Assembly: GCF_002087085.1 (NCBI RefSeq)
Contig: NZ_MWQY01000013.1
Location: 62,001-126,000, forward strand
DNA length: 64,000 nt
Direction of reading: 5' to 3'
In this document: in pieces, positions 3,001-6,000 of the stretch
How positions within the stretch are numbered: the first letter of the stretch is position 1
Layout of the letters: each line of letters starts with the position of its first letter
Program-made: the position numbers

Positions 3001-6000
3001 CAGTCCAGGAGAGCTTCGAACCCTACGGCGAGGCAAACCCTCCCCTGGTCTTTCTCGCCCGGGGCATGAAGATTCTGCAGGCCGACCTGATGGGGAAAAA
3101 AGAGGTGGTTCACCTGAAACTTCTTCTGGAAGGGGGTGTCCACAAGTGGCCGGCGGTCTACTGGAACGCCGCACCCCGTCTGGGCCGGGATTTTCAGATC
3201 GGGGATACCGTGGATGTGGCCTTCCGGCTGGGGAGGAACTATTTCAACAACACCGAGACCCTGCAGCTGACGGTTCTGGATCTTCACAGGCCGGAGGATG
3301 TACACCTCGTGGAAGAGAGACCTGCTGAATGAAGCGTCTCCCCGTGTCCGTTGCGCTGCTGCTGGTTCCGCTTCTTCTGCTCTCCGCCTGGGATGTGGAT
3401 CTCTCCCTGGCGGCCCCCGGAGGGATTGTCAGCGTCGTCTCCCATGAGGGGGATGAGCTTGCCGGAGGAGCTGAACTCCGATACCAGGGACGGACTCTGA
3501 GTGCTTCGGAAGCCATAAGCACGGAGGAAAGTTACATCATCCTGCTTCCCATTCCCTGCGATCTTTCGGGATCCCTGATCGAGCTGTATGTAAGGGATGC
3601 CGGAGATGCTCTGACGAGTCTGGAGATTCCGATAGCGGTCAGGGAGTTTATCCATGAGGAGATTCCCCTGAGTATCGCCATGTCAGAGCTGCGGCAGAGT
3701 GATGATCCCAGAAAAATCGAGGAGTCCCGCCGGATGTGGGAGCTCCTCGGCCGTTTTGATCCGGCAGCTTCTCTTGCAGAGGAGGTACTCATCCTTCCCG
3801 TGGGGGAGGCCAGGAAGAGCAGCAGCTACGGTGACCGGAGACTTTTTATCTATACCGACGGAGAAAAAAGCAGGTCCCTGCATTACGGTATCGATTACGC
3901 TGTTCCGGTGGGTACCAGCGTTGCAGCAGCGGCGGGGGGGAGGGTTGTACTGGCTGCGGAGCGGATGCTCACCGGATTCTCCATCGTCCTGGAACACGGA
4001 CCGGGAATCTTCTCAATTTATTATCATCTCGATGCGCTTGCTGTTGAGGAGGGTGAGTTTGTGGAACAGGGGGATATCCTGGGTACCAGCGGTATGACGG
4101 GGCTTGCTACGGGCCCGCATCTGCACTGGGAACTGAGAATAAACCGGATCCCCGTGGATCCTCTGCTCTTTACCGCCCGCCCCTTTGTTTCCTCCGGGAC
4201 GGCATCATCCCTGAACGTGGATACTGATCCGTGAGCTTGACACTCCAAAGCTAATACTATTTAATAAAACGGACGTATGTATTCTTACTGCGAAAGGGGG
4301 TGATTTTCTATCGCTAACATTCGAATAGACGAAGGCGAACCCTTGGAAAAGGCAATCAAACGTTTCAAGCGGATGGTTGAAAAAGAGGGCATTATCCGGG
4401 AATGGAAGAAACGGGAATATTATGAAAAGCCTTCCACCATTAAAAACCGCAAGAAAAAGGCCATGGAGCGCAAACAGATGAAGAAGCTCCGCAAGATTCA
4501 GGCCTCAAAGAACTACTAAACCTAAAGAAAACGCGTAACAGCGTTAACAGGAGGCCTCCCTTTGTGGGGCCTCTTTCTTTTCCCGCCGGGAGTTCCGCTG
4601 CAGTTTCGATTGTTTGCGGGATACCTGAAGGCGATTTTCTTGACTCGGGAGGAATTAGATGATAGATCTGTCGACAAACTACTTGGGTATTAATCTGCGA
4701 AATCCGATCATCGTTGCGAGTTCAGGTATGACCTCCTCGGCGGAGAAAATCGCCGAATGCGAGAAGGCCGGTGCCGGTGCGGTGGTTATCAAGAGCCTTT
4801 TTGAGGAACAGATTAACCTGGAAACCGCTGAAATGATGAAGAGTATGGACTATACGGCCCATACCGATGCCTTTGATTATTTTACCGGCACAAGTAAACA
4901 CCAGCATATAGACGAATACGTCGAACTCATTGAATCTGCAAAGTCACGGGTTTCCATTCCTGTAATCGGGAGCGTAAACTGTGTCAGCCCGGGAAGCTGG
5001 ATTGAGTACGCCGGACGCCTCGAGAAGGCGGGAATTGACGCCCTGGAGGTCAACGTCTTTATCATGCCCGCCGACGCGGAACAGGACAGCAGCAGCATTG
5101 AAGACCGCTACATAGCCATCCTCCGGGAGATCAAGCGGCATGTCTCTGTCCCTGTGTCCCTCAAGATCGGTCCCCATTTTTCCGGCCTGGCCAATGTAAT
5201 CAAGCGGTTTGAAAACAACGGTGCCAACGGGGTGGTCCTCTTTAACCGCTTCTACCGTCCCGATGTCGACATAGAGAACATGAAGATCATTCCCGCCAAG
5301 GTATACAGCGTCCAGCAGGAGATCTCCCTCTCTCTGCAGTGGATCGCCCTTCTTTCCGGGGAACTCGACATACACTTCGCCGCCGCAACGGGAATCCATG
5401 ACGGAAAAGGGGTTATCAAACAGCTCCTGGCGGGTGCCCGGGCTACCCAGCTCTGTTCCACCCTGTACCGGAACGGCATAAGCCACATTCAGCGAATCCT
5501 CGTGGAGGTCGAAGAGTGGATGAACCGTCACAATTTCAGGACGATTGACGAGTTCCGGGGAAAACTGAGCCGTGAAAACGTCAGGAATCCGGAAATATTC
5601 GAACGATCCCAGTACATCAAGGCCCTTGTAGGTATCAGCTGAGGGGAAGGGTATGGAAGAGGAGGAAATCCTCGATCTCGTGGACGAAAATGACCGGGTA
5701 ATAGGCCAGGCCCGGCGCAGTCTTTGTCACGGGAACCCGGACTATCTGCATCGGGCGGTCCATCTGATTGTCATGAACCCGGAAAGGGAAATCTATCTCC
5801 AGCGCAGGAATCCGGATAAACAGGTCCAGCCGGATAAATGGGATACCTCCGTCGGCGGACACATTCCTTCCGGAGAAGATTATGTGGATGCCGTGTTCCG
5901 TGAAGCCGACGAGGAGCTCGGTTTACGGGATTTTGTTCCCTGTTTTATGTATCGCTACATAATGCATAATGATTTTGAGTCGGAATACGTGGGGACCTTC

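What a model noticed while it worked through the whole genome (the two positions that open the first line are those of the whole stretch)
4295..4519. Ribosomal protein bS21 gene (rpsU) initiates at AUC behind an extended Shine-Dalgarno, a trait of the Marispirochaeta cl [...]
The called rpsU (g00847, 58 aa, TTG at 66343) is cut short. An in-frame TGA lies two codons before an ATC at 66310-66312, no ATG/GTG/TTG lies between, yet these 11 codons encode the conserved bS21 N-terminus. A 9-nt Shine-Dalgarno (AGGGGGTGA) ends 6 nt before the ATC. bS21 (69 aa) is made from AUC. The codon is ATC (ATA once) in 11 genomes of this clade, while 28 other Spirochaetota genomes have ATG, TTG or GTG at the aligned codon.
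Evidence so far: Upstream reading (111-113). Relatives (119, 121): ATC in G000-G007 and G009, ATA in G012; the TTG of the gene call is CTG, CTT, TTA or CTC in 6 of them. Phylum sample (124-125; 29 loci read of 60 genomes with a match): ATG 15, TTG 10, GTG 3, ATC 1 (G011). Literature search (122); the one paper with all terms does not treat the start codon (123, passage).
(Added by a program. Inside this text positions count along the whole contig: contig position 62,001 is position 1 of the stretch shown here. "Call 12" and the like, gene names such as g00115 and contig names such as C1 are that model's own, and its searches are not shown. The text may have been shortened before it was handed on; [...] marks where a part breaks off. 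The agent that wrote the report below was given it as the finding of a first reader that could run no searches.)

Follow-up and report, generated by a model that had tools for sequence, protein, structure and literature searches.

The report
bS21 gene starting at AUC codon
The only gene for ribosomal protein bS21 in this spirochaete has no normal start codon and must begin at AUC behind an unusually long ribosome-binding site, an arrangement kept (as AUC or AUA) across most families of its class and probably used to throttle or self-regulate the protein's synthesis.

Summary
An in-frame TGA (4301-4303) is followed by TTT TCT ATC (4310-4312), and the next 11 codons encode the conserved bS21 N-terminus. 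The ATC aligns with residue 1 of solved bS21 chains. The Shine-Dalgarno is longer than stated: 13 contiguous pairs with the genome's own 16S 3' tail (4292-4304). It gives the strongest predicted SD duplex of any candidate start in the genome.

The clade claim is too narrow. ATC or ATA stands at the aligned codon in 35 of 40 genomes sampled about one per family, and in 31 of 36 family codes of the class. It was found in 0 of 46 readable loci from other classes of the phylum. ATT is almost never used (1 of 138).

Where the spacer is 5 nt, other gene callers start at the GTG inside the SD (72 aa). The 4- and 6-nt spacer lineages, this genome included, exclude that start.

NCBI-named 69-aa proteins already begin at this codon. 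Five full-text searches found no paper describing it.

The closest known cases are extended-SD plus AUA/AUU starts in Staphylococcus aureus, and rpsU autoregulation through a 13-bp SD helix in Flavobacterium johnsoniae. Initiation at AUC is well supported (about 0.8). Autoregulation is inference (about 0.3). No protein-level data exist.

The parts
4237..4242 (+). TTGACA, -35-like hexamer of a possible rpsU promoter
   Evidence: Read by eye. TTGACA followed after 17 nt by TTTAAT. The consensus scan did not report it, because it requires A at position 2 of the second hexamer. TTGACA-like words stand at a similar distance in several relatives. Inferred, not shown.
4260..4265 (+). TTTAAT, -10-like hexamer (weak call)
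   Evidence: By eye. Not called by the scan. It would put the transcript start near 4272.
4277..4303 (+). Short in-frame open frame ATG...TGA (MYSYCERG*), ending at the TGA inside the SD
   Evidence: The ATG is kept in the loci of G000, G001, G002, G004 and G005, and is AAG in that of G003 (L007). It is absent outside the genus. Probably not translated: no SD, and it lies about 5 nt from the inferred transcript start.
4292..4304 (+). Extended Shine-Dalgarno GAAAGGGGGTGAT: 13 contiguous pairs (one G.U) with the 16S 3' tail ...GGATCACCTCCTTTCT
   Evidence: 16S end read from contig C47 of the same genome. Predicted duplex is -22.5 kcal/mol, lower than any of 54,422 canonical candidate starts in the genome (best -21.8). 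Positions -16 to -5 are RRRGGRGGTGAT in 60 of 60 distinct spacer-5 sequences, except T at 57 of 60 at -5 and one T at -11.
4301..4303 (+). TGA inside the SD, in frame with rpsU in this genome
   Evidence: In frame only where the spacer after GGTGA is 6 nt: 22 of 94 ATH loci and 27 of 138 ATH pattern matches (hand tally).
4305..4309 (+). Spacer TTTCT between the SD helix and the start codon
   Evidence: Spacer after GGTGA is 5 nt in 64, 6 nt in 22 and 4 nt in 6 of 94 ATH loci; 2 have no GGTGA.
4310..4312 (+). ATC, inferred start codon of rpsU
   Evidence: It aligns with residue 1 of solved bS21. ATC or ATA in 35 of 40 class genomes.
4310..4519 (+). rpsU coding sequence, 69 codons plus TAA
   Evidence: PF01165 at 70.9 bits against a cut-off of 27. 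Single copy in the genome. The same 69-aa protein with M at position 1 is in the public protein collection (P0001).
4343..4345 (+). TTG, start of the truncated 58-aa gene call
   Evidence: TTG is the first downstream canonical start at this place in only 11 of 94 ATH loci. In 60 of 94 the first canonical start is the ATG 21 codons after the ATH.
4549..4575 (+). Terminator-like hairpin followed by a T run, after rpsU
   Evidence: 10 pairs, 6 G-C. Metatranscriptome contigs nevertheless run on past it.

Best explanation
rpsU of this spirochaete is translated from AUC 4310-4312. A 13-bp helix forms between the mRNA (4292-4304) and the 3' tail of 16S rRNA. It holds the 30S subunit so that the codon 5-6 nt downstream lies in the P site. 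There the ordinary initiator tRNA (anticodon CAU) reads AUC (AUA in many relatives) as a near-cognate start and inserts formyl-methionine.

Shown:
- No other start can give the conserved N-terminus in this genome.
- The codon and the 12-nt SD core are kept across most of the class.
- The SD is the strongest in the genome.
- The initiator tRNA is ordinary.

Inferred:
- A very strong SD paired with a very weak codon is selected. It sets a low and controllable rate of bS21 synthesis, as shown by reporters for AUA/AUU starts with extended SDs in S. aureus.
- ATT is avoided because, with the conserved GCN second codon, it would create an out-of-frame TTG at the same SD.
- A further step, self-regulation through bS21-free subunits, is given in the section on the most novel reading.
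For: Frame and stop. Pfam and solved-structure alignments place residue 1 at the ATC. One S21 gene in G000, and one match in each of the 40 relatives with a match.

Conservation:
- ATC 25, ATA 10, ATG 4, TTG 1 among 40 genomes (41 searched).
- ATC 37, ATA 18, ATG 23, GTG 1 among 79 readable of 80 named loci.
- ATC 80, ATA 57, ATT 1, ATG 9, GTG 1 and 2 false hits among 150 listed of 199 pattern matches in 401 genomes (hand tally; 49 matches not listed).

Purifying selection on the 11 'extra' codons: amino acids are kept while synonymous codons vary. Codon 10 is Glu in 86 of 88 (GAA 48, GAG 38). Codon 12 is Leu in 85 of 88, through six codons.

The rival GTG is excluded in 28 of 94 ATH loci, which have no in-frame canonical codon between the upstream stop and the ATH.

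SD: RRRGGRGGTGAT is invariant, with purines only opposite the UUU of the rRNA. The same 16S end is found in 14 of 41 relatives, in both ATH and NTG lineages. rpsU has the lowest duplex energy in the genome.

ATT: 43 of 139 internal Ile codons (codons 4, 6, 16) are ATT, against 0 of 88 at the start.

A rough tree needs at least 10 ATC/ATA switches and at least 7 ATH/NTG switches, so ATG is reachable yet rarely fixed.

The initiator tRNA of G000 has CAU and three G-C pairs next to the anticodon loop.

NCBI-named 69-aa proteins start at this codon.

Precedent: S. aureus AUA/AUU starts each have an extended SD and give about 10% of the AUG reporter level (PMC13009471, passages read).
Against: There is no protein-level or ribosome-profiling evidence: the N-terminus has never been observed.

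In 64 of 94 ATH loci (spacer 5), the GTG inside the SD is in frame three codons upstream. A 72-aa product cannot be excluded there from sequence alone, and other annotations use it (P0014). A few loci also have an in-frame ATG two codons upstream (6 of 94).

The metatranscriptome evidence is only contigs. They cover the gene from 4292, 4318, 4324 and 4364 onward. They cannot show a transcript start, a strand or translation.

The link between ATH and a stronger SD could not be tested once kinship is allowed for. There were only 2 independent pairs on supported branches, and 7 on all branches.

The rpsU tree is short (204 columns, 83 of 172 inner branches unsupported), so the switch counts are rough.

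The motif alone is not rare in a 64-kb window.
Confidence: 0.8

Rival explanations
1. The AUC/AUA start is real but has no regulatory meaning. With a 12-13-bp SD the ribosome initiates well enough on any near-cognate codon, so the codon drifted from ATG and is simply tolerated.
For: The extended SD is also present in lineages with ATG, GTG or TTG, so it may be older than the ATH codon. The tree needs at least 7 switches between ATH and NTG, so both states are viable. No association between SD strength and ATH could be shown with kinship controlled.
Against: ATG is one mutation away, yet ATH persists in 31 of 36 family codes while bS21 identity falls to 54%. The choice among ATH codons is not neutral: ATT is 1 of 138 at the start against 43 of 139 at internal Ile codons of the same gene. 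In S. aureus such codons cut expression about ten-fold (PMC13009471), which is unlikely to be neutral for a ribosomal protein.
Confidence: 0.25
2. Translation starts at the TTG of the gene call (4343), giving a 58-aa bS21 without the first 11 residues. The upstream codons would be untranslated leader.
For: TTG is a canonical start and the ORF finder lists it. No direct data exclude some initiation there.
Against: The 11 upstream codons show amino-acid conservation with synonymous change. They align to residues 1-11 of solved bS21 and to the Pfam profile. TTG stands there in only 11 of 94 ATH loci. No SD precedes it. The 13-nt SD is placed for the ATC.
Confidence: 0.04
3. The start is a canonical codon upstream, reached by recoding or by another frame. 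Candidates are the GTG inside the SD (4300-4302), or the ATG at 4277 with read-through of the TGA at 4301.
For: The GTG is in frame in 64 of 94 relatives and is used by other annotations (72-aa forms). The ATG at 4277 is in frame with rpsU and kept in 5 of 6 genomes of the genus.
Against: In this genome the GTG is out of frame and its frame stops after five codons (GTG ATT TTC TAT CGC TAA, read). An in-frame TGA separates ATG 4277 from rpsU. That ATG is AAG in G003 and absent outside the genus. A GTG or ATG lying within the SD has no SD of its own at a working distance. GGTGAT is invariant at every base, including would-be wobble positions, which is a nucleotide-level constraint and not a coding one.
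Confidence: 0.03
4. Sequencing or assembly error, or a decaying gene.
For: A single base change (ATG to ATC) would produce the picture in one genome.
Against: The same codon is found in independent assemblies of well over 100 genomes. The gene is the only S21 gene. The frame is intact and under purifying selection. RNA-library contigs from three studies carry the same ATC region where they cover it (no differing letter listed at 4310-4312).
Confidence: 0.01

Closest known systems
Non-canonical AUA/AUU start codons directed by extended Shine-Dalgarno motifs in Staphylococcus aureus (infC, ccpN, cvfC1, citZ). PMC13009471, passages read.
   Same: A near-cognate AUH start codon, conserved among relatives, sits behind an unusually long SD at a proper spacing. 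It is interpreted as translation attenuation (about 10% of the AUG level in reporters).
   Different: Different genes and a different phylum. AUC is not among the S. aureus cases. Those were mapped by ribosome profiling and tested with reporters; here nothing is tested. That paper notes that Firmicutes bS21 is short and leaves room for a long helix. The spirochaete bS21 is of the long, 69-aa type, aligned to residue 65 of 71-aa chains.
Autoregulation of rpsU in Flavobacterium johnsoniae by ribosomes lacking bS21. PMC9976891 (section 32 and passages) and PMC13000457 (abstract and discussion).
   Same: The gene is the same. It carries the strongest and longest SD of its genome (9-13 bp there, 12-13 bp here). 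A 13-bp SD-ASD helix is what was seen by cryo-EM to exclude bS21.
   Different: F. johnsoniae starts rpsU at AUG. Its other genes lack SDs, and its anti-SD is locked in a pocket of bS21, bS18 and bS6. This spirochaete uses SDs elsewhere (glgC), and its phylum was used by the same group as an SD-rich comparison (PMC7797042). The papers name only Bacteroidia and Chlorobia for the rpsU SD. No experiment exists for spirochaetes.
AUU start of infC (IF3) and pcnB in Escherichia coli. Recalled from textbook knowledge; cited within PMC7797042 and PMC13009471.
   Same: A conserved near-cognate AUH start is used to limit, and for infC to self-regulate, synthesis of a component of the translation apparatus.
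   Different: The regulator there is IF3, which rejects non-canonical codons. bS21 has no shown role in codon discrimination. The codon there is AUU, which is almost never used here.
GTG/TTG-started rpsU with the invariant GAGAGGGGGTGA in another class of the same phylum (loci L123-L141, L143).
   Same: The same gene and the same SD core with GGTGA. The spacer is 6 nt in most by eye (not tallied for these loci). A start weaker than ATG stands in 19 of 20 loci.
   Different: The starts are canonical GTG or TTG, not ATH.

Membership tests
Ribosomal protein bS21 (Pfam PF01165) | Match to the family profile above the curated cut-off | tested here: met
   70.9 bits against a cut-off of 27, residues 4-56 on profile positions 2-54.
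Ribosomal protein bS21 (Pfam PF01165) | Collinear with bS21 chains seen in solved ribosomes, from the N-terminus on | tested here: met
   Query 3-67 aligns to 3-67 of a 69-aa chain (E 1.5e-22), and 4-65 to 4-65 of 71-aa chains.
Near-cognate (AUH) start codon behind an extended SD (S. aureus infC/ccpN/cvfC1 type) | No canonical start can yield the conserved N-terminus | tested here: met
   In-frame TGA two codons upstream, with no ATG, GTG or TTG between. The same holds in 28 of 94 ATH loci. In the other 66 an in-frame canonical codon lies upstream (the SD's GTG in 64), so for those the point is inconclusive.
Near-cognate (AUH) start codon behind an extended SD (S. aureus infC/ccpN/cvfC1 type) | Extended SD-anti-SD pairing at a working distance from the codon | tested here: met
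   13 contiguous pairs with the genome's own 16S tail, ending 5 nt before the ATC. Duplex energy -22.5 kcal/mol.
Near-cognate (AUH) start codon behind an extended SD (S. aureus infC/ccpN/cvfC1 type) | Non-canonical codon and SD conserved among relatives | tested here: met
   35 of 40 genomes of the class. The SD core is invariant in 60 distinct spacer-5 sequences.
Near-cognate (AUH) start codon behind an extended SD (S. aureus infC/ccpN/cvfC1 type) | Initiating ribosomes or the N-terminal peptide observed at the codon | not testable with these tools
   Only metatranscriptome contigs were available. No profiling or proteomics data.
rpsU autoregulation by bS21-free ribosomes (Flavobacterium johnsoniae type) | rpsU carries the outstandingly strongest, extended SD (9-13 bp) of the genome | tested here: met
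   12-13 bp. rpsU has the lowest duplex energy among 54,422 canonical candidate starts and among 152 GGTGA-type candidates. The margin over the next candidate is small (-22.5 against -21.8), and most high-ranking rivals lie inside long open frames.
rpsU autoregulation by bS21-free ribosomes (Flavobacterium johnsoniae type) | Other genes lack SDs because the anti-SD is sequestered on the platform | tested here: not met
   glgC of the same genome has GGAAGGAG 6 nt before its ATG. There are 1,558 candidate starts with a duplex of -12 kcal/mol or stronger. Spirochaetes are listed as SD-rich in PMC7797042. This gene is therefore not filed as a member of that system; a like mechanism remains possible.
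rpsU autoregulation by bS21-free ribosomes (Flavobacterium johnsoniae type) | Ribosomes lacking bS21 initiate better on rpsU mRNA; the long helix excludes bS21 | not testable with these tools
   Needs biochemistry or cryo-EM.
infC-type autoregulation through IF3 discrimination of AUU | The gene product itself discriminates against the non-canonical codon | not tested
   The product is bS21, not IF3. No role of bS21 in codon discrimination is known to me (recalled). The infC of this genome seems to start at TTG after GGAGGA.

The most novel reading that the evidence does not exclude
Spirochaetia sense and correct a shortage of bS21 through their ribosomes. The 12-13-bp helix between the rpsU leader and the 16S tail can form fully only on 30S subunits that lack the long-type bS21. 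The AUC/AUA codon is so weak that replete subunits, which cannot hold the full helix, hardly ever start there. The rpsU mRNA would then be translated mainly by bS21-free subunits. That would be the Flavobacterium circuit, reinforced by a near-cognate codon, in a phylum that otherwise uses Shine-Dalgarno sequences. It would make 'specialised initiation by incomplete ribosomes' an old and widespread way to balance a late-assembling ribosomal protein.
Probability: 0.3. Interest if true: 0.8.

Novelty: new variant of a known kind. Interest (0 to 1): 0.6.

Why it matters
Natural AUC starts are very rare, so a class-wide conserved case in a ribosomal protein gene is a clean natural test bed for start-codon selection.

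The pairing of the genome's strongest SD with one of the weakest possible codons, on the very gene whose product lies beside the SD helix, suggests something further. The bS21 feedback recently shown in Flavobacterium may not be a peculiarity of SD-less bacteria.

Practically, it explains three conflicting annotations of this gene in public databases (58, 69 and 72 aa) and says which one is right. Gene callers that allow only ATG, GTG and TTG will mis-start rpsU in most of this class.

Tried and rejected

2. Conserved RNA structure in the leader: the fold of 4272-4360 is no better than shuffles (z -0.32, 74 of 200 shuffles as good). No structured-leader model was pursued.

3. Other ATH-started genes in the genome: a screen of 779 G[AG]GGTGA sites gave 152 candidates. 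The best-looking one, ATT before a 433-codon frame, is glgC. Its real ATG with its own SD lies eight codons downstream. A second candidate (C3) had no family match. A third stretch was fetched and not analysed (L195). No second convincing case was found; this was not an exhaustive search.

4. Unusual initiator tRNA: rejected. The tRNA on C8 has CAU, an unpaired first position and three G-C pairs.

5. Correlated evolution of ATH with a stronger SD. Raw means in the class are -21.2 (39 loci) against -17.1 kcal/mol (17 loci). Only 2 independent pairs lie on supported branches, so nothing can be concluded.

6. RNA evidence: contigs of four RNA libraries (three studies) cover rpsU and run on downstream. 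None covers 3900-4291, and one carries adapter letters right before 4292. Contigs cannot show a 5' end, so I draw no transcript start from this.

7. Contiguous complementarity with G.U allowed: four sites of 15 nt in the genome besides the 16S gene itself, rpsU among them. The other three have more wobble pairs. The energy ranking was used instead.

8. Literature: five full-text searches found no paper treating the rpsU start codon of spirochaetes. Subscription journals and supplements were not searched.
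Full report
**What is in the window**

Reading 4100-4700 and translating from 4277 gives ATG TAT TCT TAC TGC GAA AGG GGG TGA TTT TCT ATC GCT AAC ATT CGA ATA GAC GAA GGC GAA CCC TTG ...

The TGA is at 4301-4303 and the ATC at 4310-4312. The frame then runs to TAA at 4517-4519. No ATG, GTG or TTG lies between the TGA and the ATC. The first canonical in-frame start is the TTG at 4343, which is the 58-aa ORF.

The 69-codon reading matches Pfam Ribosomal_S21 from residue 4 (70.9 bits, cut-off 27). 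It aligns residue for residue with bS21 chains of solved ribosomes: 3-67 to 3-67 of a 69-aa chain, and 4-65 to 4-65 of 71-aa chains. The ATC therefore occupies the place of the initiator methionine.

The genome (4.2 Mb, 79 contigs, 97% complete) has a single S21 match.

The neighbouring genes are a RecJ-like exonuclease and an M23 peptidase upstream, and a dihydroorotate-dehydrogenase-like protein and a NUDIX protein downstream. A terminator-like hairpin follows rpsU at 4549-4575. A TTGACA-17-TTTAAT pair at 4237-4265 is a possible promoter. It was read by eye, and the scan does not list it.

**The ribosome-binding site is longer than reported**

The 16S gene of the same genome ends ...GGATCACCTCCTTTCT (contig C47). 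Against this tail, the mRNA at 4292-4304 (GAAAGGGGGUGAU) forms 13 contiguous pairs with one G.U. Two further G.U pairs are possible.

The predicted duplex energy is -22.5 kcal/mol.
- Among 152 sites of the type G[AG]GGTGA + 4-7 nt + start codon + at least 50 codons, it is the lowest.
- Among 54,422 ATG/GTG/TTG candidates with at least 80 codons ahead, none reaches it (best -21.8). Most high-ranking rivals lie deep inside long open frames.

These screens use no gene calls and are crude. By itself, RRRGGRGGTGAT occurs once in the window against 0.27 expected, and 21 of 100 shuffles have one or more. Position and conservation carry the argument, not rarity.

**How wide the trait is**

*The class, about one genome per family.* A protein search of 41 genomes (G000, its genus and family, then one genome for each of 34 further families of the class) found one match in each of 40. 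Thirty loci came with that call and I fetched the other ten. At the aligned codon: ATC 25, ATA 10, ATG 4, TTG 1.

*Named public genomes.* Eighty named loci were fetched, of which 79 were readable: ATC 37, ATA 18, ATG 23, GTG 1. The ATG forms are largely records titled Sphaerochaeta or Sphaerochaetaceae. The ATH forms include records titled Sediminispirochaeta, Alkalispirochaeta, Spirochaeta sp. and many Spirochaetales or Spirochaetaceae MAGs.

*A pattern search over 401 genomes of the class.* The pattern was GGTGA, 5-6 nt, NTN GCN NNN RTN NNN NTN GAN NNN NNN GAR. It matched in 194 genomes, and the reversed control matched 5 times. In my hand tally of the 150 listed matches (49 were not listed): ATC 80, ATA 57, ATT 1, ATG 9, GTG 1, and 2 evident false hits. 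The pattern favours the ATH architecture, so it gives numbers of ATH genomes, not proportions.

*By family code.* ATH is present in 31 of 36 families of the class for which I hold a locus. The five without are:
- a family of 1-1.8-Mb genomes (TTG);
- a Treponema-sized family (12 loci: ATG 7, TTG 4, GTG 1);
- three others. One of these (f17) does contain ATC genera.

*Other classes of the phylum.* In the 53 loci from other classes, 46 had a readable aligned start and none was ATH: ATG 24, TTG 14, GTG 10. Seven were offset at the N-terminus.

**Is the ATH really the start in the relatives?**

The 11 codons between the ATH and the place of the G000 TTG behave as coding sequence. Among 88 distinct sequences:
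- codon 10 is Glu in 86 (GAA 48, GAG 38);
- codon 12 is Leu in 85, through six codons;
- codon 13 is Glu in 86;
- codon 15 is Ala in 77, through four codons.

The first canonical start downstream is the ATG 21 codons after the ATH in 60 of 94 ATH loci. Starting there would remove the conserved KRFKR segment.

Upstream, the picture depends on the spacer:
- With a 5-nt spacer after GGTGA (64 of 94 loci), the GTG of GGGTGAT is in frame three codons before the ATH. This explains the 72-aa proteins in public collections, such as the older annotation of Sediminispirochaeta smaragdinae DSM 11293 (P0014, MIHIAFVRVDD...).
- With a 6-nt spacer (22 loci, G000 among them) or a 4-nt spacer (6 loci), the GTG is out of frame.
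- In 28 loci, no canonical codon at all lies between the upstream stop and the ATH.

The 6-nt forms are scattered over at least twelve family codes (27 of 138 ATH rows). The GTG cannot be the common start. It also lies inside the SD with no SD of its own, and GGTGAT is invariant at every base in 57-60 of 60 sequences. That is a nucleotide-level constraint, not a coding one.

NCBI-named '30S ribosomal protein S21' entries of 69 aa begin exactly at the ATH codon (P0018 MAFVRVDD..., P0002, P0007 and others). The window's own MANIRIDE... form is in the collection too (P0001). The start is therefore already used in annotation, though I found no paper about it.

**Signs of selection on the codon and on the SD**

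Positions -16 to -5 are RRRGGRGGTGAT in the 60 distinct spacer-5 sequences. Opposite the three U of the 16S tail only A or G occur (one C in 180 cells). This is what pairing with U, and not a protein or a promoter, predicts.

The same 16-nt 16S end is found in 14 of 41 relatives, in both ATH and NTG lineages. In the other 27 it was not found, and most of those are fragmented assemblies.

At the start codon ATC and ATA alternate. At least 10 switches are needed on a quick rpsU tree of 181 rows, which is poorly resolved.

ATT is all but absent: 0 of 88 distinct sequences and 1 of 138. Yet ATT makes up 43 of 139 Ile codons at positions 4, 6 and 16 of the same genes.

My explanation, which is an inference: the second codon is GCN in 83 of 88, so ATT-G would create a TTG one base out of frame at the same SD. 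A canonical TTG would outcompete the near-cognate codon.

ATG is one mutation away and has been reached several times (at least 7 ATH/NTG changes, 2 of them forced by supported branches). Yet ATH persists while the protein diverges to 54% identity. Kin are not independent, so I give no p-values.

**Mechanism**

The initiator tRNA of G000 is ordinary: CAU, an unpaired first position and three G-C pairs next to the anticodon loop. AUC and AUA must therefore be read as near-cognate codons. The leader shows no significant structure.

The closest tested precedent is S. aureus. There, AUA (infC, ccpN, citZ) and AUU (cvfC1) starts were mapped by profiling. Each has an extended, conserved SD, and they give about 10% of the AUG level in reporters (PMC13009471, passages).

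For rpsU itself, the Fredrick and Ortega laboratories showed the following in Flavobacterium johnsoniae. rpsU has the one extended SD of the genome. Ribosomes lacking bS21 translate it faster. [quoted passage not shown] (PMC9976891, section 32 and passages; PMC13000457, abstract and discussion.)

Those papers name Bacteroidia and Chlorobia only. 'Spirochaet' occurs once in the first (Borrelia paralogs) and never in the second. The S. aureus paper adds that long-type bS21, as in E. coli, would hinder an extended helix.

The spirochaete bS21 is of the long type and its helix is 12-13 bp. A similar feedback is therefore plausible, but nothing here tests it. One defining feature of the Flavobacterium system, a genome otherwise without SDs, is not met.

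I put initiation at AUC at about 0.8. Given that, a selected attenuating role is at about 0.6-0.7. Feedback through bS21-free subunits is at about 0.3.

**Expression**

Contigs of four RNA libraries from three studies carry the gene from 4292, 4318, 4324 and 4364 onward and run past the terminator-like hairpin. None covers 3900-4291. Contigs cannot show a 5' end, a strand or translation, and DNA can be present in such libraries. I use this only to say that the sequence, including the ATC, is seen in independent samples.

**What remains open**
- The N-terminal residue.
- The efficiency of the codon.
- Whether bS21 or IF3 dosage affects it.
- The polarity of change (ATH ancestral or derived), which needs a species tree.
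- Whether other phyla have it. Only this phylum was surveyed.
- Supplements of the papers, which I did not read and which may hold wider SD surveys of rpsU.

Noticed in passing
L123-L141 and L143 (other class of the same phylum): rpsU is preceded by the invariant GAGAGGGGGTGA and, in most by eye, a 6-nt spacer. It starts at GTG (8 loci) or TTG (11) and only once at ATG, among 20 loci. A strong SD with a weaker-than-ATG start thus seems to be a phylum-wide habit for this gene.
   Followed up: partly
window 4310-4315 and relatives: ATT is almost never the start codon (1 of 138; 0 of 88 distinct sequences), although 43 of 139 internal Ile codons of the same genes are ATT. With the conserved GCN second codon, ATT would create an out-of-frame TTG at the same SD. 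The one exception is G434.
   Followed up: partly
public protein collection, P0014, P0010, P0005, P0003, P0022: The same gene is annotated with at least five different N-termini: 66, 69, 71, 72 and 81 aa. The 72-aa forms start at the GTG inside the Shine-Dalgarno. The 71-aa forms start at an ATG in the spacer.
   Followed up: yes
window 4277-4303: An eight-codon open frame (MYSYCERG) starts at an ATG about 5 nt from the inferred transcript start. It ends at the TGA inside the SD, in frame with rpsU. The ATG is kept in 5 of 6 genomes of the genus and is AAG in the sixth.
   Followed up: partly
window 31782-31854 (contig C5 93782-93854): A tRNA gene with anticodon CAT lies in the window. It lacks the three G-C pairs of an initiator, so it is an elongator Met or a lysidine-type Ile tRNA. 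The initiator is on contig C8.
   Followed up: partly
G000 contig C6, locus L042 about 1216-1260: infC (IF3) of this genome has no ATG near its conserved N-terminus. TTG three bases after GGAGGA is the likely start, so IF3 too seems to use a non-ATG codon.
   Followed up: partly
window 4363: Contigs of two RNA libraries from different studies read A where the window has T. This is probably strain variation.
   Followed up: no
family code f17 of the class: One family holds both states. One genus has mostly ATG (one GTG, one ATC), with GGTGA followed by a 6-nt spacer. Three other genera have ATC. This would be a good place to study the switch.
   Followed up: no
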